Positions 46,069-56,896 of a stretch of DNA of 64,000 bases are shown here, piece by piece (the first letter of the stretch is position 1; each line of letters starts with the position of its first letter). This stretch comes from Pyrinomonadaceae bacterium (GTDB lineage: Bacteria > Acidobacteriota > Blastocatellia > Pyrinomonadales > Pyrinomonadaceae). The stretch is taken from assembly GCA_035645695.1 (NCBI GenBank), contig DASQMC010000079.1, forward strand, positions 3,402 through 67,401, in the 5' to 3' direction. A model generated the notes under the pieces. The model did not search any database, had not been told where the DNA came from, and saw nothing but the letters and a program-made list of their open reading frames with translations. The translations under genes and the position numbers were made by a program.

Positions 46069-46785
46069 TCACCAGATGTTTCCCGCGCCGGGCGTGTACG
46101 ACGCGCTGATCACCGCATTGCTGATCAGGGTGTCGCACTGCACGACGCCGCTGAATTTCGACATCCCCGAATCGACCGTTACCATCGAGGCCGACACCTG
46201 CACGAGCGACGCGTTGATCGTCACCTTCGCCGAGGCGTTGACGGTGATGCCGCTCGGCTCCAGCTTGATCGAGTTGCCGTTGCTGTCCACGATCTCGACG
46301 GTGCCGGGGCCGTCCTTGAGCGTCACCTTCTGCCCGCCGGGCGTTTCCAGAATCATCTGCTCCTGCCCGTCCGTATCGTCGAGCGTCACCTTGACGCCGT
46401 TGCGCGAGCGCAGGACTTTGCGATAGTTGTTGCCCGCAGCGTCCATCGAATCGGGCGGCGCGTCGCTGCCGTTCCACAATCCGCCGATGACGTAAGGGCG
46501 GCGCGGGTCGCCTCCCTCGAACGTGACGAGCACCTCGTCGTTCACGTCCGGCACGAACCAACTGCCGCGATTGTTCCCGCCCATCAAAGTAGCCAGCCGC
46601 GCCCAAGCCTCGTAGCGCCCGCTACCCGTGTCGGCCGACCACGGCAGCGTGATCTTCACGCGCCCCTGGCCGTCCGGGTCTTTTATGTCGCTGACGAGCG
46701 CGGGGAACACGCCGTACCAGCGACCGCCCAGCCCGGCCGGTTGCCGCACGTCCAGGATCATCTCCAGTTGATTCTTCTCACCCAC
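46069..46785 (-). CDS. Spike protein, gpV/gp5 OB-fold plus beta-helix (C-terminal half of a VgrG/Afp8 equivalent)
   Basis: The OB-fold segment is YGVFPALVSDIKDPDGQGRVKITLPWS...WARLATLMGGNNRGSWFVPDVNDEVLVTFEGGDPRRPYVIGGLWN. It is followed by a repetitive beta-helix (VTLDDTDG.., VTLKDGPGTVEI.., IKLEPSGITVNA..). The GTG start at 46785 is uncertain; an alternative ATG is at 46761. Confidence 0.85.
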   Translation of the reverse strand: MGEKNQLEMILDVRQPAGLGGRWYGVFPALVSDIKDPDGQGRVKITLPWSADTGSGRYEAWARLATLMGGNNRGSWFVPDVNDEVLVTFEGGDPRRPYVIGGLWNGSDAPPDSMDAAGNNYRKVLRSRNGVKVTLDDTDGQEQMILETPGGQKVTLKDGPGTVEIVDSNGNSIKLEPSGITVNASAKVTINASLVQVSASMVTVDSGMSKFSGVVQCDTLISNAVISASYTPGAGNIW

Positions 46786-46811: not shown

Positions 46812-47882
46812 CTAAACCCTGCCGATGCCCGGTCGTTCGGCGCGAAATTCCGTGCGGATGCCATTGGCTCTGTCGAAGAGGTGTTTGACCTCCGTGACGT
46901 AGTACTTGCCCGAAAACAGCGGGCCGAGTTCTTTCAAATCGACGAACACGCCCGCGCGCAGATCGGGCTTCGTCTCCGCCGTGCCGTAGCCGACGATGAA
47001 GCGGCGCGCGCTGAGGCGGAAGAAGGTTTCCGCTTCATACTGAGCCTCCTGGCTGTTGAGCGGGATGGTGTGCGCGAGGGCTTCCCTGCGCGCGCCGAGC
47101 GCGGATTGCAAAATGCTCACGCCGCTCGTGTCGCCGTTCAGTTCGCTCGTGATGACGGACTCGGTGGCCTCGTAAGTCAGCGCGCTCTTGCCCGGCACGT
47201 CCCAGCCGTTAACCGTGACGCTCGTGCGCTGCATGGCGAGATCGGCCAGCGCCTTGAAGTCGCGCAGTTGCGCGCCGCGCTTCAATTCGAGAGTTGCGCC
47301 GCCGCGATTCCCGTGCGTCCTGGCGTTCAGGGTGCTTCCCTCCATCCAGAGTTCCGCGTCAATCGCGCGCGCACGCTCGCGCGCGAAGGCGAGGTCGCTC
47401 TGGTTGACCTGCGCGAGCACCCTGTAGGTCGGCCCAGCGACGCTCACGCTCGGACTCAAACCGTGATCGCTGGCGATCTGTTTGAACACGTCCGCGTCGG
47501 TCGCATCGGCGAAAGTGCGCGTGCGGCGCGTCATGCGTAAATCCTGAAAGCGATCTTCGGCGAGGACGGCGATGTCCGGCGCTTGCCCTTCGGGGAAGCC
47601 CGCTTCGAGTCCCATGATGCGCCCGTCGAAAATGTTCCGGTCGCCGATCTTCACTTGAAACGCCTTGCCGAAGTCGAGCGTGCGGCGGTCGAAGTAGAGG
47701 TAATCCGTCGTGTTGTTGACGTTGCCCCAATTACTGAAACGCGCCTCGCAACGATAGAGGCCGCTCGTGTTCTCGACGATGCTCAAACGGTTGAGGCCGC
47801 CCGCGAGGGCGGGTTGTTCCGTCCCGCCAACGTGGATGGCGGGGGTCGAAGAAACTAATCCTGTGGTTATATCGTCGGCCAT
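46812..47882 (-). CDS. Phage late control gene D-like protein (N-terminal half of a VgrG/Afp8 equivalent)
   Basis: The 356-aa protein contains RLSIVENTSGLYRCEARF...FDGRIMGLEAGFPEGQAPDIAVLAEDRFQDLRMTRRTRTF...VFKQIASDHGL...VNQSDLAFARERA, which is gpD-like. Confidence 0.8.
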   Translation of the reverse strand: MADDITTGLVSSTPAIHVGGTEQPALAGGLNRLSIVENTSGLYRCEARFSNWGNVNNTTDYLYFDRRTLDFGKAFQVKIGDRNIFDGRIMGLEAGFPEGQAPDIAVLAEDRFQDLRMTRRTRTFADATDADVFKQIASDHGLSPSVSVAGPTYRVLAQVNQSDLAFARERARAIDAELWMEGSTLNARTHGNRGGATLELKRGAQLRDFKALADLAMQRTSVTVNGWDVPGKSALTYEATESVITSELNGDTSGVSILQSALGARREALAHTIPLNSQEAQYEAETFFRLSARRFIVGYGTAETKPDLRAGVFVDLKELGPLFSGKYYVTEVKHLFDRANGIRTEFRAERPGIGRV

Positions 47883-48083: not shown

Positions 48084-48974
48084 TTAAAACAGATCGCCGA
48101 CTTCCAGCTTGATGTTCGTCTCGATTGACCCCGCGCCGCCCTGCGCCGATAACGAAGACGACGCCCCGAACGAGGGAGATGCTCCGAATGGCGCGGTTGC
48201 TCCGAATGAAGACGACGCCCCGAACGACGCGGATGCTCCGGCGGAACCTGTGACGCCCGCGCCGAACGAGCCGCCGCCGGAGCCGCCCGCGTTCATGTCG
48301 AGCAGTTGGCCGGGTTCGAGCATGCGCGGGTTTTCGATGTTGTTGGCGGCGGCGATTGATTGCCAGTCGTCGCCTTTGCCCTGGCTGTCGGCGAGTTCCG
48401 GCAAGCTCTTGTCCTTCGGGGCTTCGGTCAGGCGGCGCGTGCCGGGCGTCTGCGCGGCGGAGGCGTCCACGTCTTTAATCGTGAACTCCGTGATCTTCTG
48501 CTGCGACAAATTGAGCGTCATGCTCGCGCGCAGCGGGCGGCCTTCGGGCGAGAAGAATTCGAGCGACTCTTCGAGCGACTCCATCAAACCGTCGAACTGA
48601 AACGACCCCCAGATGAAGCGCACCGACGGCGGCACGTAATTCTTGCCCTCCTGCACGGGCGTGATGAAATAGGCCACCTTCTGCGTCAGCTTGCGCACGT
48701 CGTTTTCCGCCGTCTCCCCCTCGGGCATGGGCTGGGTTACGTCGAACCAGAGTTGGAGGACGAGTTTGGTCGTGCCCGCGCCGACGAACTGGCGCGCGGG
48801 CGTTCCCTTCTGGTCGCCCGCGCCCGCGGGCGTCGCGATCTGGTTGGCGAACGAGACCTTCAGCGACTCCGGGTTGAACTGCACCTTCGCAGTCTTCTCC
48901 GGGTTGATCTCGTTCTTGAACTCGGCATCCAACTGCCGCAGTTCGGCTTTTTCCAGTTTGACCGAATCAGGCAT
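48084..48974 (-). CDS. Tube-initiator-like protein with C-terminal LysM domain (Afp7-like)
   Basis: The ATG at 48974 has a GGGAG SD. The N-terminal tube-like segment is VKLEKAELRQLD...AKVQFNPESLKVSFANQI. The LysM-like segment is GDDWQSIAAANNIENPRMLEPGQLLDMN. The track ORF extension to 49052 reads through the heptamer repeat (HSSLIT) and is not credible. Confidence 0.8.
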   Translation of the reverse strand: MPDSVKLEKAELRQLDAEFKNEINPEKTAKVQFNPESLKVSFANQIATPAGAGDQKGTPARQFVGAGTTKLVLQLWFDVTQPMPEGETAENDVRKLTQKVAYFITPVQEGKNYVPPSVRFIWGSFQFDGLMESLEESLEFFSPEGRPLRASMTLNLSQQKITEFTIKDVDASAAQTPGTRRLTEAPKDKSLPELADSQGKGDDWQSIAAANNIENPRMLEPGQLLDMNAGGSGGGSFGAGVTGSAGASASFGASSSFGATAPFGASPSFGASSSLSAQGGAGSIETNIKLEVGDLF

Positions 48975-48997
48975 CTCGACTCCCGGCGACGGTGCGG

Positions 48998-49188
48998 AAG
49001 TGATGAGTGATGAGTGACGAGTGATGAGCCGGAAAACCATCCCGCTCGCCACGCATCTTCTCGTCTCTCGTCATCTCTCGCTCATCGCTTTCAACTCATC
49101 ACTCATTACTCATCACTCATTACTCATTACTCATTACTCATTACTCATTACTCATTACTCATTACTCATTACTCATCACTCATCACTT
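48998..49188. repeat. Heptamer microsatellite hairpin: 13 x ACTCATY facing 4 x GATGAGT
   Basis: A tandem array of ACTCATC/ACTCATT runs in perfect 7-nt register from 49094 to 49184. Reverse-complement copies (aagtgatgagtgatgagtgacgagtgatgag) lie at 48998-49028. The terminal 18 nt (aagtgatgagtgatgagt / actcatcactcatcactt) are perfectly complementary. Confidence 0.9.
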
Positions 49189-49196
49189 CTCCCCGC

Positions 49197-49685
49197 TCAT
49201 TGCCCGGACGTGCCGGTGTTGTCTTTGAGCGAGAGCGATTCATAGGCAAGCTGGAGTTCTTCTATCGCCACCGCGCCGTCTTTCGCGTTGAGCGGCGGGG
49301 CTTTGAGTTTGACCGGGACGCAGCGCGAGAGGATGAAGCGCGCGCTCTCGGTCGTGCCGTCGGGGGCGAAGACGACCACTTCGGCGTCGGCGCGCGTCTC
49401 GGGGTTCGTCAACATCAGGTTCACCCACCTCCACAGGTCGAACGTCTCGGTCATGCCTCGCCTGAGCGTGACCGACCCGAAGTTGAGCGGCCCGGTCAGG
49501 CGAATCTGCTTGCCGTTGTTGCCGCCCTCTCGGATGGTCTTGACCTCCATCGTTATTTCCAGCCCGTCGCACTCGGCGAAGGCCGCGTCGCAAATCTGCA
49601 TCGCCACACCGTCAACCCTGATCTCGACCGAGAAGTTGAAGGCGACGAACGGGTAGACGACCGTCTCGTTGGCGGATTTCGTCAT
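49197..49685 (-). CDS. Tail tube protein paralog 2 (Afp5-like)
   Basis: The sequence is [17 protein letters not shown]...[53 protein letters not shown]. This is the same pattern as the tube gene at 52766..53218. Confidence 0.88.
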
Positions 49686-49689
49686 TGCG

Positions 49690-52653
49690 CTATCTCGCCT
49701 CCGTGACGAAACCCCGGTCGCCCGTCTGCACGAGCCGGATCGTCATGAACGTCAGAGGCCGCGACGGCGCGACGCGCAACTCGACTATGAAACGCCCCTC
49801 TTCGACCGACTGGCGCGTGTTCAAAGATTCGCCCGCCACGACCTGATAAGCGGCGGCGGCCGTGCGTCCGGCAAACGCGCCGCGCAAAAACATTCGATCC
49901 AGCACTGCCTCGAAGCCGCGCACGACGAGGCGGCGGAAGGCCGCGCTGTTCGGCTCGAAGACGTAAGTCGCGCCGTGGCGAAGGGCCAAGCGGCGCAGCA
50001 GGATCAGCAGGCGGCGCACGTTGATGAGCCGCAGGTCTTCGTCGTCGCTGAGCGTGTCGGCGTTCAGGGCGAGAAAGCCGCGCGGCTCGTGGCGGATGAG
50101 ATTCAGCCCGGCCAACTGCAAGTCGAGCCAGCGATGGCGGACGATGGGAGGCGCGAGCGCGACGCAGCCGTTGACGAGTTCGTTGGCCGGGGCGACCCAC
50201 GCGCCGCGTGCGTTGGCGCGGCGCGCGAGGATGCCGCAGGCCGCGCCGTCCGGCGGGTTGTCGCGAAAGAGATCGAAGCGGCGCGCATCGCGCCCCGTGA
50301 GCCACGGGTGATAGACGGCGGCGTAGCTGAACGCGCCCGTCTCGTCGTTGTTCAGACGCACGCTGTTGTCCGAGCCGGGCGCGCGTTCCTGCGTCGTCTT
50401 GAGGAGCGAGATGTGTTCGATGGCTTTGTCTTCGCGATAATGCGACGGCAGGGAGAGCACCGCGAGCAGGTCGCCGCGAGCGGCGCACATGCGCACGAGA
50501 GCGCGCTGCACGGAGAGCAATTCGGCGTTCGAGTAGTCGGCCTCGTCTCTCAACTCCCACGCGTTCGACGGCGCGACGCGCACAGAGACGCCGTTCGACC
50601 AGTCGCTCGTGCCTCTCGCGGTCGTCGCGCGGACGCGATAGTAATAATCGCCGGGACGACGACCGTAGAGCGTGTAGCTCAAGTCCTTGCCCGTGTAGAC
50701 GGTCGTGCCTCCGTTCCAGTCACGGTCGGTTGATTCTTCGAGCACGAACGTTGCGCCCGCGACGCCGGACATCCAGGAGAGCGTGTATGTTCCGCTCTCG
50801 CTGAAATTGCCGGGAGAGGCGATGAACGGGCGCTCGATCACTTCGATGTCGCAGTCCAGAAAGTGGCCGAGTTGCGGGCGGCGCACGAGCGGCGGGTTGT
50901 CGAGCCGCGAGCAGTCCAGAAAGTGCCACCACTCGGGGCGCGGGAACGGCTTAGAGGGACGCGCAATCGGGGCTTTCTCCTGATTGGCCTTGTCCCAACC
51001 GCGATGCACCGCGTCCGGCACGGCGACGACGGTCACTTCTTCGAGCGCGAGCGCGGCGTGAATGCCGCGCAGGCGGCGCGGGTGTTCGCTCAGGTAGCGA
51101 ATGAAGTCTGCGCGCGAGAGCAGATCGTTGAGGCTGGCTTCCCGGAGATCGGGGTCGAGAAACAAATCCGCATCGAACTCGGCAAGGCCGTCTCTTTCGA
51201 GCGGCGTGCCGGGAAGTTTGACGGCGGGCAAAAACCGCTCCGGCAACAACTTCATGCCGAGCGGAATGTAGACAACCCCTTCGCCCTCAGCCGCCGCGAG
51301 CGGGAAGCGAACCTCGCCGACGGGCTGCCAGAGCTGTTCGGCCGGTTCGTTGACGGGCGCGGTTCTGTCGGCGTCGTAGGCTTCGGCGTCGGTGGGGAGT
51401 TGGCCGAAGTAACGCGGGTGGCTCGCGCCGAAGGCGAGTTCGCCGAGCGTCAACGCGTAATCGTTTCCCTTGCGCGCCCACAACTCGAAGGAGAGCCGTT
51501 CGCCTACGGGCGCGATTTTACCATCGTCTTCGAGAGCGTTTTGCGCGGGCGCGCCGGGCAGCCACCAGAGGCCGCGCCCTTTGATCCGCACCACCTCGGC
51601 CGCGCCCGGCAAAGCAGCGTTCGTCGCGATGCCGGTCTCTTCGACCGTGATCCAGAGGTTCTCGCCTTCGACGCGGACAATTGTGCCCGCGGTCGGAGCT
51701 TCGGCGGCGGAGATGGCTAGATCGAGCGTGAGCTCGCGCCCCTCGCGCGATTTCTTCTCGTTGTCCCACGGGTACAAAACACCAGCGCGGCGAGCGGCGA
51801 ACTCGTCGGCCTGTGTGCGTTCCGGCGGTTCCTGCGATTCGTATTCAATCGGCGTTTGAGGCTCGGACGTGTAGACGCGCGCCTCTACGAGTTTCGGCGC
51901 GGCGGGCGGCGGATGCGGGGATGTCGCGCGCAACCAGACGGGATGCGCGGCGTCGGTCTGCACCGTCCGTCGCAGCGTGGGCGAACTCGCGGCGAGCGGC
52001 GCGATCCCGGTCGCCTGAAAAAGCAGCACGTACTCGTCTTTGAAAGTGAGACGCAGCAGATCGCCTTCGACCAGAGCATCGGGCGAATCGAGGGCGAGTT
52101 CGGCGCGGAGTTTCGCCAGAGAGAAACCGGACACCATCGCCGGACGGCTGACGAGCGACGCGCTCACTTCCAGATCGTCCGACCAACTGCCCTCGGAGCG
52201 CGCCCGCACGTAGGCCGGGTTCAATTTCTCCACGATGCCCTTGCGCGCATCGTCGGTCGTGTTGAGCGCGCCCGCCATCAGGCCGGGCACGTGGAAGAAA
52301 TTCGAGCGGGCGCGATTCAGCGTGCCGTCGCCCATCGCGGCGGCGCGCTCGCGCGCGACGCGCACGATCCAGCAACGCCGCCCGCCGTTGTCGAAGAAGC
52401 TGCGCACGCAGGGCGCGAGGTAGGCGAAAGTCTCGCCGCTCAGTTTTCTGTCCCACGCGACGCGAGCGTCTTCGCCGAAGATGTCCGTAAACTGCGCGAC
52501 GGATTCGACGGCGACGGCCAGGTTCAAAGGTCCGGACGCGGCGAAGCCGACGAAGGCCGCCACGTCCATGCGTGGCAACCACTCGTCCAGAGACGGCGCT
52601 TGAGCCTCGAAACGAAAACCGGGCAGACGCCGCGTAACGACGCGCTTCAACAT
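49690..52653 (-). CDS. Giant tail-sheath paralog (987 aa) with large insertion including an FN3-like domain
   Basis: The C-terminal sheath domain reads AAVYHPWLTGRD...GILARRANARGAWVAPANE...GLNLIRHEPRGFLALNADTLSDDEDLRLINVRRLL. The N-terminus is RLPGFRFEAQAP...VAAFVGFAASGP. The FN3-like block GTYTLSWMSGVAGATFVLEESTDRDWNGGTTVYTGKDLSYTLYGRRPGDYYYRVRATTARGTSDWSNGVSVRV maps to about 50569-50832. Confidence 0.8.
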   Translation of the reverse strand: MLKRVVTRRLPGFRFEAQAPSLDEWLPRMDVAAFVGFAASGPLNLAVAVESVAQFTDIFGEDARVAWDRKLSGETFAYLAPCVRSFFDNGGRRCWIVRVARERAAAMGDGTLNRARSNFFHVPGLMAGALNTTDDARKGIVEKLNPAYVRARSEGSWSDDLEVSASLVSRPAMVSGFSLAKLRAELALDSPDALVEGDLLRLTFKDEYVLLFQATGIAPLAASSPTLRRTVQTDAAHPVWLRATSPHPPPAAPKLVEARVYTSEPQTPIEYESQEPPERTQADEFAARRAGVLYPWDNEKKSREGRELTLDLAISAAEAPTAGTIVRVEGENLWITVEETGIATNAALPGAAEVVRIKGRGLWWLPGAPAQNALEDDGKIAPVGERLSFELWARKGNDYALTLGELAFGASHPRYFGQLPTDAEAYDADRTAPVNEPAEQLWQPVGEVRFPLAAAEGEGVVYIPLGMKLLPERFLPAVKLPGTPLERDGLAEFDADLFLDPDLREASLNDLLSRADFIRYLSEHPRRLRGIHAALALEEVTVVAVPDAVHRGWDKANQEKAPIARPSKPFPRPEWWHFLDCSRLDNPPLVRRPQLGHFLDCDIEVIERPFIASPGNFSESGTYTLSWMSGVAGATFVLEESTDRDWNGGTTVYTGKDLSYTLYGRRPGDYYYRVRATTARGTSDWSNGVSVRVAPSNAWELRDEADYSNAELLSVQRALVRMCAARGDLLAVLSLPSHYREDKAIEHISLLKTTQERAPGSDNSVRLNNDETGAFSYAAVYHPWLTGRDARRFDLFRDNPPDGAACGILARRANARGAWVAPANELVNGCVALAPPIVRHRWLDLQLAGLNLIRHEPRGFLALNADTLSDDEDLRLINVRRLLILLRRLALRHGATYVFEPNSAAFRRLVVRGFEAVLDRMFLRGAFAGRTAAAAYQVVAGESLNTRQSVEEGRFIVELRVAPSRPLTFMTIRLVQTGDRGFVTEAR

Positions 52654-52765
52654 CGCTCACCCCATTTGCCGGAGAGTCCGGCAACAACCATCCGGCGAAG
52701 ACGCGCTCGAACGCTCCCCTCTTAACAGAGCGTTATCGGTCGCGCAGTCGCCAGCCACGGACGGC

Positions 52766-53218
52766 TTATTCCATTTCCAGACGCTCGTAGGCGAGCGTCA
52801 ACTCTTCCATCGCCACGTCCGTACCCCTGGCGTTCATCGGGCCGCTGACGTGCTTGATGATGCGCGCGCGCAGCAGTTTCCAAGTCTGGACGACCGCCGT
52901 GTGATCCTCGTTCTGCAACTGGATGACAACCGTGCGCTCGGCCATCTGGTTGCCGTTGCGTATGTCGTCGAGCCACCTGTAGAGATTGAGCGAGCCGATC
53001 ACGCCGCGCTTCAAAGTGACATCGGTTGCCTTGTTGAGGCCGGTGATTTTGCGCACGCTGTTCTCTTTCGAGTTGCCCGTGCGATATTCCGACACGGTTA
53101 CTTCCATGCCGATGTTGCTGCACTCCTGAAAACCCGCCTCCACCCCGTCGGTCGTGCCCGTGCCGAGGTCGACCAGAAAATTGAACTGCACATACGGACG
53201 ATCACGTAGGACTGCCAT
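52766..53218 (-). CDS. Tail tube protein paralog 1 (Afp1-like, T4 gp19-type)
   Basis: The sequence is MAVLRDRPYVQFNFLVDLGTGTTDGVEAGFQECSNIGMEVTVSEYRTGNSKENSVRKITGLNKATDVTLKRGVIGSLNLYRWL. A GAGGAGAA SD lies upstream. Confidence 0.9.
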   Translation of the reverse strand: MAVLRDRPYVQFNFLVDLGTGTTDGVEAGFQECSNIGMEVTVSEYRTGNSKENSVRKITGLNKATDVTLKRGVIGSLNLYRWLDDIRNGNQMAERTVVIQLQNEDHTAVVQTWKLLRARIIKHVSGPMNARGTDVAMEELTLAYERLEME

Positions 53219-53311: not shown

Positions 53312-55357
53312 TTAAACTTTCCTATCCGCCGTCCACTGGCCGATGCGGAAGATGACGAACTCTGCGGGGCGCAGGGGCGCGACGCCGACGAGACAGACGA
53401 GCCGCCCGTTGTCGAGATCGTTCTGCGTCATGGTCGAGCGGTCGCAGCGCACGAAGTAGGCTTTGTCTGGCTTGTCGCCGAGAAGCGCGCCCATCTGAAA
53501 TTCGTTGAAGAGGAAATCTTCGATGGTGCGGCGCACGTTGTCCCAGAGCATCGAGCCGTTCGGCTCGAAGACCGCCCATTGCGTGCCCTTGTCGATGGAG
53601 CGTTCGAGATAGGCGAAGTAGCGGCGCAGATTCACGTATTTCCATTCGGGGTCGGAACTCGTCGTGCGCGCGCCCCAGAGGCGGAAACCGCGCCCCTCGA
53701 AGAAGCGGAAACAGTTGATGCCTTCCGGGTTCAAAACTTCCTGCTGCGCGCGGTTGAGCATCTTCTCGAAGCCGATGGCGAGGTTGACCACTTCGTTCGC
53801 GGGCGCTTTGTAGACGGCGCGATTGATGTCGTTGCGCGCGTAGATTCCGGCGACGAAGCCGCTCGGCGGCAGGTTGATCTCGCTGTTCGTGACGGGGTCG
53901 AGCACGCGTATCCACGGATAGTAGAAGGCCGCATATTTGGAATCGATCTTGGCGCGCATGGCGCGCACTTCCGAGATCGATTGATCGTCGCCGCTGTCTA
54001 TGACGGCGATGCGATAGCGCATCCGCTCGGCGTGCGTGACGAGCGCGTTGATGATCGCCGTCGCTCCGGCGGTGTTGTCCCTGTAGTTGGCCGTCGCTCC
54101 GGGCGTGGCGACGATGGAGATGTCTTCCAAATCCTCGAAGGAGACGAGGCCGAACTTGGCGTTCGTCTGCTCGTCGATGTTACCGGCGTACTCCTCGGCT
54201 CCGGGCAGTTGGCCGTCGTTGCCGCCGGTCAGGAGAATTTCCACGCTGCGGTCGCTGTCGGTCGAGTCGAGGTTGTCGAGCAGGTTCGCGCTCAGGTTCT
54301 CGTTCGACTTGGAACTCGTGCCGTAAGCGATGAGCGTCTCGATCAGTTCGACGCCGGTCGCGAGACCCGCGCCGACGAGCACGACGATGGGGAGCGTGCG
54401 CGCCTGCGAGAGGCTGCTCGGATTTTGCGAGAAAGCCGCGCTGATGGAATCGCGCGTGCCGAAGGTGTTCTCGTGTTGCGGGTCGAGCGCGATGTTGTCC
54501 CAGACGTTCGTCGTCGAACCGTCGGCGGAAGTGACGGAGATGGTCAAGGTCGCGACGCGCACCTCGTCGCCCTCGTCCACGCTGAGCGCGCTGAAGCCCG
54601 AGCCTGCATTCGTGTTGAGCCGCAGATCGCCGTTCGCCTTCGTCGCCGTTTCGCCGAAAATCCACGTCTGCTCCGTCTCGTCGTAATGCGCGAGACGAAA
54701 GCCGCCGGTGCCGGGCGGGCTGTTGACCGGACTCGTCACATTGCTCACCCAGACCGTGTCGAAGTTGCGCAGCGACTTGACCGACAGGTGTTCCGGCTCG
54801 CCCGCTTTCTTCGGGTCTTGCACCAGAATGTTCTGGCCGAGTTTGACCGTGACGCGCACGCGCACGTTACCGGCCGCGCCGGGGAAGCGCGCGCGGATGA
54901 GCACGGATTCATCGGCCAGTTGCGCCACAGGGTCTTGATACATCCACGCGCGCGCATGGCCGTCGGAGTAGAGCGCGCCGGTCTTGCTCGGGTCGTCTTC
55001 GAGGATTTTTTCGCTGGGACGCTTGTAGATGTTCTCGACACCGTCGGCGTCGCCGGTGATGACGAGCGGGCGGAAGATGCGCCCGATATAAACCCGCTTG
55101 CCGCCCTCTTCAAAAAAGGCGCGCACGGCGTGCCAGAGATAGTTGTGCGTCTTCGCGCCTTCAAAATCGAGTTTCTGCCGGTCGCCGTAGATGCGCTCGA
55201 ACTCGACGAGGCCGGTGATGATGTCCGGCTCAAGATCAACCGGGCCGAAGCGCGACGGGCCGACCAGCCCGGTCGTGGTCGTGCTCACGCCTTCGATTGA
55301 CTTGGCGCGAAACGAGGTCTCTTCGATATAGACTCCGGGAGCAAGATATTCAGGCAT
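53312..55357 (-). CDS. Tail sheath protein (Afp2/3/4-like)
   Basis: The N-terminus is MPEYLAPGVYIEETSFRAKSIEGVSTTTTGLVGPSRFGP. The C-terminal domain reads AAFYYPWIRVLD...GIYARNDINRAVYKAPANE...INCFRFFEGRGFRLWGARTTSSDPEWKYVNLRRYF. An AAGGAGAA SD is present. Confidence 0.95.
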   Translation of the reverse strand: MPEYLAPGVYIEETSFRAKSIEGVSTTTTGLVGPSRFGPVDLEPDIITGLVEFERIYGDRQKLDFEGAKTHNYLWHAVRAFFEEGGKRVYIGRIFRPLVITGDADGVENIYKRPSEKILEDDPSKTGALYSDGHARAWMYQDPVAQLADESVLIRARFPGAAGNVRVRVTVKLGQNILVQDPKKAGEPEHLSVKSLRNFDTVWVSNVTSPVNSPPGTGGFRLAHYDETEQTWIFGETATKANGDLRLNTNAGSGFSALSVDEGDEVRVATLTISVTSADGSTTNVWDNIALDPQHENTFGTRDSISAAFSQNPSSLSQARTLPIVVLVGAGLATGVELIETLIAYGTSSKSNENLSANLLDNLDSTDSDRSVEILLTGGNDGQLPGAEEYAGNIDEQTNAKFGLVSFEDLEDISIVATPGATANYRDNTAGATAIINALVTHAERMRYRIAVIDSGDDQSISEVRAMRAKIDSKYAAFYYPWIRVLDPVTNSEINLPPSGFVAGIYARNDINRAVYKAPANEVVNLAIGFEKMLNRAQQEVLNPEGINCFRFFEGRGFRLWGARTTSSDPEWKYVNLRRYFAYLERSIDKGTQWAVFEPNGSMLWDNVRRTIEDFLFNEFQMGALLGDKPDKAYFVRCDRSTMTQNDLDNGRLVCLVGVAPLRPAEFVIFRIGQWTADRKV

Positions 55358-55367
55358 GACTTCTCCT

Positions 55368-56309
55368 TCAGGGCGGTGAACCCGCCGGGGTAATGAACAG
55401 CACCGACTGCGGAACAGGCGGTGAAACGGTGATCGAATCTTGCGACTTTAAAATCAATTCCTGTCCGTATTTCAATGTCACGCCCGCCAGTTCTTCGAGC
55501 GTGGCGAAATCAGCCCACAGCGTGGCGGGCGGCGCGTTGAGTTGGTCGAGCGTGGCGCGCAGGTCCGGGAGCGGCGCGAATTTGGTTGCGGCATCATCCT
55601 CCTGAGGCGGCGGGGCGTAACCGGCGTTTAAGGTCAACTCCCACGTCTGCTCAAGGAGCGGCACGTTTTTGTTGACCGGCGGCGAGGCGACCGGCGAGGC
55701 GAGCGGCGAATCGGTCGGCTTCGGATAGGGAAAGATGAGGGCGACGCTTCCGCGCTCGTCGCTCATTCCGCGCGCGTGCAGTTGGCCGTCAAGACGTGCC
55801 TCCAATACCGCCCATCGGGCGGGCGCGTTCGTGTGCGCGTTCCACAGGTCGGCGCGAACGACGGCCATGCCCGAATTCAGCGCGCGCGCCGGGGCGGAAT
55901 AGAGCGGGACGCTCCTTGCGCCTTCGGGCGGCGAAGGCTCTAAGGGCGACAGCCAGTTGTAGAGGCCGCGCGGGGCGGGCAGCTCAACCTCGAATCGGAA
56001 AGGCTGAAAGCGACGCTCCTGATCGACGACCTCGACCACGAACGTTTGCGACGGCGGCAAGTTCAGCCAAAACTCTTCGTCGCCCGCGCCGTGTTCAAAG
56101 GCGCGCTGTAGTCCCGGCGCATGGTGCAGGACGTATGTTCCCGAACGATTGACGAAGGCTTCGACGCGCCGCGCGCTGTTGTTCGACGGGTAGACCGTCA
56201 CGCTCAGGCCGCCGCCGACGTTTTCGCCCGTCGCCGCATCGTGAAAGCGCAGCCCGACCGGCGCGACGAGCGTCAGCCTTTCCAACACCTGTACGGGTTT
56301 GAAGACCAT
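55368..56309 (-). CDS. CIS-associated hypothetical protein with two transthyretin/CarboxypepD_reg-like beta-sandwich segments
   Basis: The segments are VGLRFHDAATGENVGGGLSVTVYPSNNSARRVEAFVNRSGTYVLHHAPGL and VVRADLWNAHTNAPARWAVLEARLDGQLHARGMSDERGSVALIFPYP. The start overlaps the cap gene stop (TGATG). Confidence 0.55.
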   Translation of the reverse strand: MVFKPVQVLERLTLVAPVGLRFHDAATGENVGGGLSVTVYPSNNSARRVEAFVNRSGTYVLHHAPGLQRAFEHGAGDEEFWLNLPPSQTFVVEVVDQERRFQPFRFEVELPAPRGLYNWLSPLEPSPPEGARSVPLYSAPARALNSGMAVVRADLWNAHTNAPARWAVLEARLDGQLHARGMSDERGSVALIFPYPKPTDSPLASPVASPPVNKNVPLLEQTWELTLNAGYAPPPQEDDAATKFAPLPDLRATLDQLNAPPATLWADFATLEELAGVTLKYGQELILKSQDSITVSPPVPQSVLFITPAGSPP

Positions 56310-56896
56310 CACGCGCTCACCTTTCCGAGAGCGAATTCGCGCGTCTGCACCGCCTCGGCCTCTTCGAGCGCCACCTTCGACTCAATCGACACCATGCGGA
56401 TCACGTATGTGACCGAGAGCGGCGGATTCAGTTTCGTGAGTGTGGCGAGGTTCGACATGTCTTGCAGGTTCAAAGGGTCGAGGATGATCTCGATGGTTTC
56501 CCCTGTGCGGAAAGTTTCCGCGTCGGCGGCGTAGTCGTTCAACAAACTCGCGTGCAGCACGGGCACGTCCTGCATCATACGGATCGCCCAGCCGAGCAGT
56601 AGTTGCTGCTTCTCGGCCGTCTTGCCCCACGCCGTCAACATGTAATGAAGGTCGAGCGGCAGCGGCGGCCGGTAGCGCTTGCCGTCCGTGCCGGTGGACG
56701 GCGGCAGGTTGCGCCGCGAACCGTTGACCGCGATGCGATAGAGAAACAGCGACAGCCCTTCCTCCATCGGCGACAGGAAATCCTTGATCTGATAGAGACT
56801 GAAACGCGCGCCCTCGAATTCCGGCTTCGGGCACGCATCGCCGAGCAGTCCGATGATGGTCTGCCCCGCCGCCGCAATTGCCTCGTATGTCGCCAT
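56309..56896 (-). CDS. DUF4255-type tail terminator/cap protein (Afp16/Pvc16 N-domain-like)
   Basis: The 195-aa protein reads MATYEAIAAAGQTIIGLLGDACPKPEF...FSLYQIKDF...LSLFLYRIAVNGSRRNLP...LPLDLHYMLTAWG, matching my memory of the DUF4255 pattern. Confidence 0.75.
   Translation of the reverse strand: MATYEAIAAAGQTIIGLLGDACPKPEFEGARFSLYQIKDFLSPMEEGLSLFLYRIAVNGSRRNLPPSTGTDGKRYRPPLPLDLHYMLTAWGKTAEKQQLLLGWAIRMMQDVPVLHASLLNDYAADAETFRTGETIEIILDPLNLQDMSNLATLTKLNPPLSVTYVIRMVSIESKVALEEAEAVQTREFALGKVSA

What the first reader, a model, noticed from the sequence alone, without database searches (positions are those of the whole stretch)
49690..52653. Giant second sheath paralog (987 aa) with about 550-aa insertion and FN3-like domain
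The N- and C-terminal sheath handshake regions are recognisable. Between them lie hundreds of extra residues, including an FN3-like module (about 50569-50832) and a duplicated HFLDC motif. If incorporated into the sheath, it would decorate the outer surface of the tail. Possible roles are adhesion, lattice stabilisation, or marking a specialised layer near the baseplate or cap.
Basis: partly seen in the sequence, partly recalled or inferred. Interest (0 to 1): 0.6.

Follow-up and report, generated by a model that had tools for sequence, protein, structure and literature searches.

The report
Oversized second sheath protein of injection system
This gene encodes a real but very diverged second copy of the contractile-sheath protein of a phage-tail-like injection machine, enlarged by two beta-barrels and a fibronectin-type module; it most likely builds a decorated ring at the baseplate end of the sheath, but that placement is untested.

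Summary
A 987-aa ORF lies at 49690-52653, on the minus strand. Its ends are sheath-like by sequence and its predicted fold matches solved sheaths. The FN3 module and both HFLDC motifs are present.

Correction: the extra material is two insertions, not one.
- aa 101-479: two beta-barrels with no significant match among solved or viral structures.
- aa 556-705: a cysteine linker plus FN3, nested inside sheath domain 2.

The protein is not a singleton. At least 1820 relatives exist. The gene order sheath1 - tube1 - giant sheath - tube2 - LysM tube initiator is fixed in about 60 loci. Record titles name about ten phyla, including cultured Myxococcus, Archangium and Lysobacter. The cluster fits the published split-spike, single-afp11 eCIS subtype IIb.

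Best reading (about 0.5): a low-copy sheath ring at the baseplate end, working like Pvc3/Pvc4/Afp4. Four indirect facts support this.
- It occupies their gene slot.
- Its partner tube2 is Afp5/Pvc5-like.
- Its core and arms are much less conserved than those of sheath1.
- Its ribosome-binding site is weaker.

A trunk co-polymer like Afp3 is not excluded. It is a new variant of a known kind, of moderate interest. First readers of this scan noted relatives in two other genomes.

The parts
49690..52653 (-). Giant sheath paralog, 987 aa (P0001)
   Evidence: ORF. Sheath hits in PDB. AF2 pLDDT 80.1, pTM 0.76. Foldseek top hits are all sheaths.
52567..52653 (-). N-terminal arm, aa 1-29, with the LPGFRFE motif (counterpart of APGVYIEE in sheath1)
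   Evidence: L10-E16 at least 90% conserved. pLDDT below 50, as expected for an extended arm in a monomer. The 959-aa version P0002 (97% coverage), consistent with a start at M29, would lack it.
52354..52566 (-). Sheath core, N-terminal part, aa 30-100
   Evidence: Aligns to 8bky residues 27-119 and to sheath1 residues 28-96. 62% conserved in distant loci.
51394..52353 (-). Insertion 1: two beta-barrel domains, A (aa 101-270) and B (aa 271-420)
   Evidence: AF2 of this piece: pLDDT 88.9, pTM 0.86. No PDB or BFVD match at E<=0.001; best is MreC at 1e-3. No Pfam family. A and B are weakly related (hhalign E 7.5e-6). The ARSEGSWSD motif at aa 151-159 is mostly invariant or at least 90% conserved.
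51217..51393 (-). Connector of insertion 1, aa 421-479, partly helical
   Evidence: Secondary structure, with a pLDDT dip at aa 430-446. 32% conserved.
50989..51216 (-). Sheath domain 2, N-terminal part, aa 480-555 (LERDGLAEF...VTVVAVPDA)
   Evidence: R487, D488, G489 and L490 invariant. Weak alignment to sheath1 residues 361-422. 58% conserved, like the core.
50833..50988 (-). Cysteine linker, aa 556-607, with WWHFLDC and GHFLDC
   Evidence: Variable length; some relatives carry an extra Cys pair and others lack the first copy.
50554..50832 (-). FN3 module, aa 608-700, nested in sheath domain 2
   Evidence: Profile against PDB. Beta-strands with high pLDDT. Present in 121 of 121 family members tested, tandem in 8.
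49693..50553 (-). Sheath core C-terminal part (aa 701-962) and C-terminal arm (aa 963-987)
   Evidence: Pfam PF04984, 20.6 bits, below the cut-off. PDB sheaths to E 1e-34. hhalign to the sheath1 family, probability 99.5%.
53312..55357 (-). Sheath1, 681 aa, presumed main sheath
   Evidence: PF04984 1.2e-21 and PF17482 7.9e-12. 8bky 1.4e-104. Core 81% and arms about 90% conserved.
52766..53218 (-). Tube1, main-tube type
   Evidence: PF06841. Best PDB hits are the main tubes Alg1, All3324, Pvc1 and Afp1.
49197..49685 (-). Tube2, Afp5/Pvc5-like; its start lies 4 nt after the giant gene's stop
   Evidence: PF06841. Afp5 4e-10, the baseplate-only 9gtp_a chain 2e-9 and Pvc5 2e-8 score better than Pvc1 and Afp1. 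Junction sequence.
48084..49052 (-). CIS_tube + LysM tube initiator (Afp7-like)
   Evidence: PF19266 1.7e-28; LysM 0.005.

Best explanation
The gene encodes a structural subunit of a phage-tail-like contractile injection system. It is a diverged duplicate of the sheath protein that keeps the polymerising core and both linking arms. I propose that it does not build the long trunk. Instead it forms one or a few hexameric rings at the baseplate end of the sheath, around the Afp5-like tube2 ring. There it would link the gp25-type sheath initiator to the sheath1 polymer, as Pvc3/Pvc4 and Afp4 do in PVC and Afp. Its roughly 530 extra residues per subunit (two beta-barrels and one FN3, sometimes two) would project outward as a collar at the baseplate-sheath junction. 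They would act as docking or stabilising surfaces.

Shown: sheath homology and fold, domain layout, family size and fixed synteny. Inferred: incorporation into the particle, ring position, outward orientation and collar function.
For: Sheath identity:
- phmmer to solved sheaths, E 1.3e-34; 34% identity to sheath1 over the C-terminal 210 aa.
- Foldseek top 50 hits are all sheaths, E down to 5e-16, probability 1.0.
- The N-arm motif LPGFRFE and the C-arm are conserved.

Specialised, baseplate-end role:
- Gene order sheath1 - tube1 - GIANT - tube2 - LysM initiator - hub - spike is fixed in about 60 loci from several phyla. That is the slot Afp3/Afp4 hold before Afp5 in Afp (own knowledge of the afp1-16 gene order).
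- Tube2 scores better against Afp5, Pvc5 and the baseplate-only 9gtp_a chain than against main tubes. Tube1 does the reverse.
- The giant gene's stop is 4 nt from the tube2 start.
- In 51 distant loci, sheath1's core is 81% conserved and its arms about 90%. The giant's are 57% and 56-63%. This fits a low-copy subunit freed from the helical-lattice constraint.
- Sheath1 and tube1 have AGGAG Shine-Dalgarno sites at 6-7 nt. The giant has only GGTGA.
- In the PDB copy, Pvc3, Pvc4 and Afp4 occur only in baseplate entries.
Against: - No direct evidence of position or copy number.
- Afp3, a second sheath paralog with an extra domain, occurs in the trunk, cap and contracted-sheath entries (6rbn, 6rap, 6rc8), so a trunk co-polymer has a precedent.
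- The giant is not orthologous to Afp3/4 or Pvc3/4. Its best hits are lineage-II main sheaths, and Afp4 and Pvc4 are among the weakest of its eCIS-sheath hits.
- The closest solved system by baseplate J, Streptomyces CIS (9gtp), has no second sheath.
- The rate-covariation analysis was weak: residual r at most 0.38 with baseplate J, untested for significance.
- Pfam sheath models do not reach their cut-offs.
- The SD and conservation arguments are indirect.
Confidence: 0.5

Rival explanations
1. Trunk co-polymer. The giant alternates or mixes with sheath1 along the whole sheath, as Afp3 does with Afp2. The tail would then be coated with beta-barrel and FN3 decorations for adhesion or lattice stabilisation.
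For: Afp3 occurs in the helical trunk, cap and contracted-sheath entries. Both arms and the core are retained. FN3 copy number varies, 1 or 2, as in phage surface decorations. Ig-like extra domains on phage sheaths are common (PMC9230969).
Against: The core and arms are far less conserved than those of sheath1 (57-63% against 81-91%). Reciprocal lattice contacts would be expected to constrain both partners equally. The SD is weaker than that of sheath1 and tube1. The gene is paired with the Afp5-like tube2, not with the main tube. There is no residual rate covariation with sheath1 (weak test).
Confidence: 0.25
2. Cap-end ring. The giant forms the last sheath layer under the Pvc16-type cap, and its extra domains form a distal collar.
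For: Retained arms could insert into sheath1 below. The lineage has an unusual short Pvc16_N-only cap gene and an extra 314-aa gene next to it. The giant's core shows a weak residual rate covariation with that 314-aa protein (r 0.32).
Against: The gene lies in the baseplate-proximal block next to tube2 and the LysM initiator, not beside the cap genes. In the solved systems returned by my PDB searches, no extra paralog is confined to a cap entry. The covariation signal is weak and untested.
Confidence: 0.1
3. Not a polymerising sheath subunit. It would be a sheath-derived accessory protein, such as an assembly chaperone, a fibre or anchor docking protein, or a regulator of contraction, that binds the particle without entering the handshake lattice.
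For: Pfam sheath models are below their cut-offs. The AF2 core C-terminal part is the least confident folded region (pLDDT 57-72). More than half of the protein is non-sheath.
Against: The arm motifs and the core are conserved across phyla. The full sheath fold is recovered. Synteny inside the structural block is strict.
Confidence: 0.1

Closest known systems
Pvc3/Pvc4 of Photorhabdus PVC and Afp4 of Serratia Afp (baseplate-proximal sheath paralogs)
   Same: An extra sheath paralog encoded after the main sheath and before the Afp5/Pvc5-type tube. Same sheath core fold. In the PDB these occur only in baseplate entries.
   Different: They are 410-440 aa against 987 aa here. They are not orthologous: the giant's best hits are lineage-II main sheaths, and Afp4 and Pvc4 are among its weakest eCIS-sheath hits. 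They have no FN3 and no twin beta-barrel insertion. The giant's position in the particle is untested.
Afp3 of Serratia Afp (second sheath with an extra peripheral domain, present in the trunk)
   Same: A second sheath paralog with an added peripheral domain. C-terminal similarity E 3.8e-22.
   Different: Afp3 is 451 aa with one small extra domain and is found in the trunk, cap and contracted-sheath entries. The giant has two insertion sites, and the conservation pattern argues against a trunk role.
Cis2 of Streptomyces coelicolor CIS (8bky/8bl4/9gtp) and the Halogeometricum borinquense sheath (9ezm)
   Same: The closest solved sequences and folds for both the giant (1.3e-34; Foldseek 5e-16) and sheath1 (1.4e-104). 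Baseplate J of this cluster is also closest to 9gtp.
   Different: Only Cis2 sheath chains appear in the Streptomyces baseplate and cap entries returned. These sheaths are 534-574 aa and their insertion is at site 1 only.
Multi-domain phage tail sheaths (T4 gp18, jumbo and Ackermannviridae sheaths; 'type 3' of PMC9230969)
   Same: A conserved N+C core with Ig-like or beta-sandwich domains added away from the tube. Foldseek aligns the whole model to T4 and KP1 sheaths.
   Different: The phage proteins are the only, high-copy sheath. The giant's beta-barrel pair has no significant match in viral predicted structures. Its FN3 is nested in domain 2.
dbeCIS subtype IIb loci (Chen et al. 2019, PMC6899500)
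   Same: Split gp27/gp5 spike and a single afp11, together with an afp12-like gene, pick out subtype IIb among the six subtypes.
   Different: In the passages I read, that paper treats Afp2/3/4 as one component and does not describe an enlarged second sheath. I found no experimentally characterised member.

Membership tests
Contractile tail/CIS sheath proteins (Pfam PF04984 Phage_sheath_1 + PF17482 Phage_sheath_1C) | Score above the Pfam gathering cut-offs | tested here: not met
   PF04984 scores 20.6 bits against a cut-off of 31.4. PF17482 is not reported. Some homologues do carry precomputed PF17482 or PF04984 hits.
Contractile tail/CIS sheath proteins (Pfam PF04984 Phage_sheath_1 + PF17482 Phage_sheath_1C) | Significant sequence similarity to experimentally solved sheaths over the N- and C-terminal core | tested here: met
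   8bky 1.3e-34 in two stretches (aa 30-134 and 764-980); Afp3 3.8e-22; Afp2 1.5e-18; Pvc2 2.8e-16; T4 gp18 3e-3. Profile-profile to the sheath1 family: probability 99.5%.
Contractile tail/CIS sheath proteins (Pfam PF04984 Phage_sheath_1 + PF17482 Phage_sheath_1C) | Sheath core fold (domains 1 and 2) | tested here: met
   AF2 pLDDT 80.1, pTM 0.76. All top 50 Foldseek PDB hits are sheaths, probability 1.0, TM about 0.5 normalised to the target.
Contractile tail/CIS sheath proteins (Pfam PF04984 Phage_sheath_1 + PF17482 Phage_sheath_1C) | N- and C-terminal extension arms for the inter-subunit handshake | tested here: inconclusive
   The LPGFRFE motif (compare APGVYIEE in sheath1) and the C-terminal F-x-T-I-R-L-x-Q segment are conserved. 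The arms have pLDDT below 50 in the monomer model. Handshake formation itself could not be modelled.
Contractile tail/CIS sheath proteins (Pfam PF04984 Phage_sheath_1 + PF17482 Phage_sheath_1C) | Polymerises around the tube and contracts | not testable with these tools
   Needs particles, cryo-EM or multimer modelling.
Baseplate-proximal sheath adaptor paralogs (Pvc3/Pvc4/Afp4 type) | Extra sheath gene located between the main sheath/tube genes and the Afp5-type tube gene | tested here: met
   Gene order in the window and in about 60 loci. Tube2 is Afp5/Pvc5-like and tube1 is main-tube-like.
Baseplate-proximal sheath adaptor paralogs (Pvc3/Pvc4/Afp4 type) | Orthology to Pvc3/Pvc4/Afp4 | tested here: not met
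   E-values to Pvc3 (2.3e-12), Pvc4 (2.3e-11) and Afp4 (1e-9) are weaker than those to the main sheaths 8bky, 9ezm, Afp2 and Pvc2. This looks like an independent duplication.
Baseplate-proximal sheath adaptor paralogs (Pvc3/Pvc4/Afp4 type) | Located only in the first sheath layers, at about 6 copies per layer | not testable with these tools
   Only indirect support: relaxed conservation and a weaker SD.
Fibronectin type III domain | Sequence-profile match to FN3 domains and a beta-sandwich of about 90 aa | tested here: met
   Family profile against PDB: titin FN3 1.5e-13; FNDC3a 7.7e-6; FN3con 8.2e-5. The model is beta-rich at aa 610-701 with pLDDT about 80-92. Conserved W627 and the Y-x-Y-R-V-R-A motif. 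The Pfam fn3 model gave no hit.
dbeCIS subtype IIb (PMC6899500) | Spike split into separate gp27-like and gp5-like ORFs; single afp11 (baseplate J) gene | tested here: met
   A GPD-like gene at 46812-47882 and a Phage_base_V gene at 46069-46785 are separate. There is one Baseplate_J gene. Criteria quoted from the paper.
dbeCIS subtype IIb (PMC6899500) | No PAAR (afp10) gene | tested here: inconclusive
No PAAR family hit among the cluster proteins I scanned, but I did not scan every small ORF.

The most novel reading that the evidence does not exclude
The giant paralog forms a six-fold collar. Its twin beta-barrels and FN3 would be the docking platform that ties the sheath-baseplate junction to the membrane-anchored partner proteins of this PAAR-less lineage: the 726-aa C-terminally anchored protein and the outer-membrane-barrel protein noted earlier in this window. 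That would make it a cell-envelope-anchored injection system whose attachment, and perhaps firing trigger, runs through a sheath subunit. In the thylakoid-anchored Anabaena CIS, attachment runs through baseplate proteins.
Probability: 0.12. Interest if true: 0.7.

Novelty: new variant of a known kind. Interest (0 to 1): 0.42.

Why it matters
Extra sheath paralogs are known to specialise the baseplate end of Afp and PVC particles, and phage sheaths often carry Ig-like decorations. This case combines the two in an extreme form. It is a conserved family of about 1000-aa proteins, mostly annotated as hypothetical. It has an independent origin, two insertion sites and a beta-barrel pair with no solved or viral structural match. 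It belongs to an eCIS subtype for which I found no experimental model.

If it is a collar at the sheath-baseplate junction, it would add about 350 kDa of surface-exposed, modular protein per ring at the place where contraction starts. That bears on how this lineage is anchored or triggered, and on engineering eCIS particles. Cultured carriers (Myxococcus eversor, Archangium violaceum, Lysobacter spp.) make the question testable.

Tried and rejected
1. Reading the ORF on the + strand gives stops. The gene is on the minus strand.
2. NCBIfam: no family for either sheath.
3. Pfam on the 62 beta-barrel inserts: only scattered single-member chance hits.
4. Foldseek of the beta-barrel pair against PDB and BFVD: nothing at E<=0.001. 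The MreC and HerA-barrel resemblances are weak (TM 0.2-0.3) and were not taken as homology.
5. Homology between the giant's insertion and sheath1's own 265-aa insertion: none in the profile-profile alignment.
6. A C2H2-type zinc site from the two HFLDC motifs was rejected. The histidines are not conserved and the first motif is absent in Myxococcota-type relatives. A disulfide between C581 and C601 remains possible but is untested.
7. Rate covariation of the giant's parts with 12 neighbouring proteins: residual correlations at most 0.38, with non-independent pairs and no significance test. Inconclusive.
8. Terminator or promoter between tube1 and the giant: no consensus site. There is only a stable hairpin pair without a U-tract, and the spacer it sits in is not kept in distant loci (5 nt in Myxococcus).
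9. Literature searches for a described enlarged or FN3-bearing CIS sheath paralog found none in the held library.
Full report
**1. Observation**

The window has a 987-aa ORF at 49690-52653 on the minus strand, with an ATG start. The + strand reading has stops. The start is preceded by GGGGTGAGCG. Homologues align from about residue 7, and the motif L10-P-G-F-R-F-E16 is at least 90% conserved. So the long start is right. The 959-aa version in the protein collection (P0002, 97% coverage), consistent with a start at M29, would cut off a conserved arm.

The gene sits inside a complete phage-tail-like injection-system cluster on the minus strand:
- BTAD regulator
- 144-aa ORF
- Pvc16_N cap
- 314-aa unknown
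- sheath1 (681 aa; PF04984 1.2e-21, PF17482 7.9e-12)
- tube1 (gp19 type)
- the giant
- tube2 (gp19 type)
- CIS_tube + LysM initiator
- GPD-like hub
- gp5-type spike
- 726-aa unknown
- gp25
- baseplate J
- P2-I-like protein, followed by further genes

**2. Is it a sheath?**

Pfam alone would not say so: PF04984 scores 20.6 bits against a cut-off of 31.4. NCBIfam has nothing. Other evidence is clear.
- Against solved structures, aa 30-134 and 764-980 match the Streptomyces coelicolor CIS sheath (8bky, E 1.3e-34). The C-terminal part matches the H. borinquense sheath, Afp3, Afp2, Pvc2, Pvc3, Pvc4, Afp4, the AlgoCIS and Anabaena sheaths and, weakly, T4 gp18.
- Against sheath1 the C-terminal 210 aa are 34% identical (E 7e-25) and the N-terminal 70 aa are 29% identical.
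- An AlphaFold2 model built on 54 homologues has mean pLDDT 80.1 and pTM 0.76. Only the two terminal arms (aa 1-26, 963-987) and a few short internal stretches (aa 430-439, 444-446, 819-822) fall below 50.
- The top 50 Foldseek PDB hits are all sheath proteins (E down to 5e-16, probability 1.0).

**3. Anatomy**

Profile-profile alignment with the sheath1 family, per-region conservation and the model give this layout:

| Region | Residues |
|---|---|
| N-arm | 1-29 |
| Core, N-terminal part | 30-100 |
| Insertion 1 | 101-479 |
| Sheath domain 2, N-terminal part | 480-555 |
| Insertion 2 | 556-705 |
| Core, C-terminal part | 701-962 |
| C-arm | 963-987 |

The domain-2 part contains LERDGL, the counterpart of the GGNDG motif of sheath1, and the strand VTVVAVPDA, the counterpart of ISIVATPGA.

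- **Insertion 1.** Modelled on its own with 62 sequences, aa 101-420 folds confidently (pLDDT 88.9, pTM 0.86) into two beta-barrel domains. The two are weakly related to each other (hhalign E 7.5e-6 over 59 columns). Neither PDB nor BFVD has a match at E<=0.001; the best are MreC (1e-3, TM about 0.27) and HerA-type barrels. No Pfam family fits. The insertion is unrelated to sheath1's own 265-aa insertion at the same site. Its most conserved element is ARSEGSWSD at aa 151-159, where most positions are invariant or at least 90% conserved.
- **Insertion 2.** A cysteine linker carries WWHFLDC and GHFLDC. C601 and F598 are invariant and C581 is at least 90% conserved. The first copy is missing in Myxococcota-type relatives, and an extra Cys pair is present in some Pyrinomonadaceae. 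An FN3 module follows at aa 608-700. A family profile confirms it against PDB (titin FN3 1.5e-13; FNDC3a 7.7e-6; FN3con 8.2e-5). All 121 family members tested have the module, and eight have two in tandem.

The 'about 550-aa insertion' is thus two insertions totalling about 530 aa, and the FN3 is nested inside sheath domain 2.

**4. Distribution**

- The 5.8-billion-protein collection holds at least 1820 relatives. Full-length homologues of 950-1120 aa range from 87% down to about 40% identity, and most are called hypothetical.
- In species-representative genomes, 165 stretches encode a relative. By record titles these come from Pyrinomonadaceae and Blastocatellia, other Acidobacteriota, Chloroflexota, Myxococcus, Archangium, Anaeromyxobacter, Lysobacter, Nitrospirae, Gemmatales, Lacunisphaera, Bacteroidetes, Kryptoniota and Trueperaceae.
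- The distribution is patchy: 2 of 300 other sampled Acidobacteriota species genomes carry the insertion-1 signature.
- The window's genome has a single cluster.
- The order Pvc16 - 314 aa - sheath1 - tube1 - giant - tube2 - LysM tube - hub - spike - 726 aa - gp25 - baseplate J is the same in essentially all loci long enough to show it.
- By the criteria of Chen et al. 2019 the cluster fits dbeCIS subtype IIb: spike split into two ORFs in IIa/IIb/IIc, single afp11 in Ia/Ib/IIb/IId, afp10 absent only from IIb.
- The closest solved baseplate J is that of Streptomyces CIS (9gtp, 3.5e-32). Only Cis2 sheath chains appear in that system's baseplate and cap entries.

**5. What it most likely does**

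Solved systems offer two precedents for extra sheath paralogs. In the PDB copy, Pvc3, Pvc4 and Afp4 occur only in baseplate entries. Afp3 also occurs in the trunk, cap and contracted-sheath entries. Several indirect observations favour the first type here.
- **(a) Gene slot.** The giant lies after the main sheath and tube pair and directly before tube2, 4 nt from its start. Tube2 is closer to Afp5 (4e-10), the baseplate-only 9gtp_a chain (2e-9) and Pvc5 (2e-8) than to Pvc1 or Afp1. Tube1 shows the opposite preference.
- **(b) Conservation.** Across 51 distant loci, sheath1's core is 81% conserved and its arms 90-91%. The giant's are 57% and 56-63%. A subunit locked into a reciprocal helical lattice with sheath1 should be constrained like sheath1.
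- **(c) Translation signals.** Sheath1 and tube1 have AGGAG sites at optimal spacing, while the giant has a weaker GGTGA. A stable hairpin pair (-54 kcal/mol, z -2.7) lies between tube1 and the giant. It has no U-tract, and the spacer it sits in is not kept in distant loci (5 nt in Myxococcus).
- **(d) Origin.** The giant's best hits are lineage-II main sheaths, not Afp4 or Pvc4. The paralog therefore arose independently. This supports 'works like' but not 'is a member of' the Pvc3/4 group.

I put about 0.5 on a baseplate-end ring, 0.25 on an Afp3-like trunk co-polymer, 0.1 on a cap-end ring and 0.1 on a non-polymerising accessory role. The outward orientation of the insertions is inferred. 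Insertion site 1 is the usual peripheral-domain site of sheaths (PMC9230969; PMC8894136).

**6. What led nowhere**

- Rate covariation with neighbouring proteins was weak: the best residual r was 0.38 with baseplate J, and the residual with sheath1 was about zero or negative. It was not tested for significance.
- A zinc site in the HFLDC pair is unlikely.
- Literature searches found no description of such a paralog.

**7. Earlier notes of this scan**

- First readers flagged look-alikes in two other genomes: a 1073-aa protein with tandem FN3 and an 893-aa protein with one Fn3-like segment. These fit the family variation I measured.
- Follow-ups on this window describe the 726-aa C-terminally anchored protein and an outer-membrane-anchored partner in the same cluster. 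I used them only for the speculative 'anchoring collar' reading.

**8. Verdict**

This is a genuine, conserved, much enlarged and diverged second sheath paralog of an uncharacterised eCIS subtype. The kind (extra sheath paralog, decorated sheath) is known. The size, the two insertion sites, the orphan beta-barrel pair and the independent origin make it a new variant. Its function remains inferred, and cultured carriers make it testable.

Noticed in passing
window 52654-52768 (minus strand), between tube1 and the giant gene: The 115-nt spacer region folds into two stable hairpins (-54.1 kcal/mol, z -2.67, 1 of 200 shuffles as good) with no U-tract. It could tune expression between the high-copy sheath1/tube1 pair and the downstream genes. 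The spacer is not kept in distant loci (5 nt in Myxococcus).
   Followed up: partly
window 52567-52653; protein P0002: The collection holds a 959-aa version of this protein (P0002, 97% coverage), consistent with a start at M29. That start would remove the conserved N-terminal arm (LPGFRFE), so it is probably a mis-called start.
   Followed up: partly
L070:4563-8621 (Archangium violaceum Cb vi76): This locus has two tandem full-length copies of the sheath1 gene (54% and 56% identity to the window's sheath1) in addition to the giant. That makes three sheath genes.
   Followed up: no
window 53312-55357 (sheath1, aa 101-365): The presumed main sheath carries its own 265-aa, poorly conserved insertion (32% against 81% for its core) at the same site as the giant's insertion 1. 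The two insertions are not detectably homologous.
   Followed up: partly
L014:10749-11255, L019:10813-11313, L022:4144-4668: Some Pyrinomonadaceae homologues carry about 20 extra residues with a second cysteine pair (DC...DC) between the two HFLDC-type motifs. Myxococcota-type homologues lack the first motif entirely. The cysteine linker is a hot spot for indels.
   Followed up: partly
window 49014-49190 (between tube2 and the LysM initiator): The + strand ORF translation shows a repeated [14 protein letters not shown] string. It lies just downstream of tube2.
   Followed up: no
window 55368-56312 and 56309-56896: The cap gene is a short Pvc16_N-only protein (195 aa). It overlaps a 314-aa gene that has no Pfam family and is conserved in all related loci, possibly a second cap or sheath-terminating component as in Anabaena Cis16A/B.
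   Followed up: no
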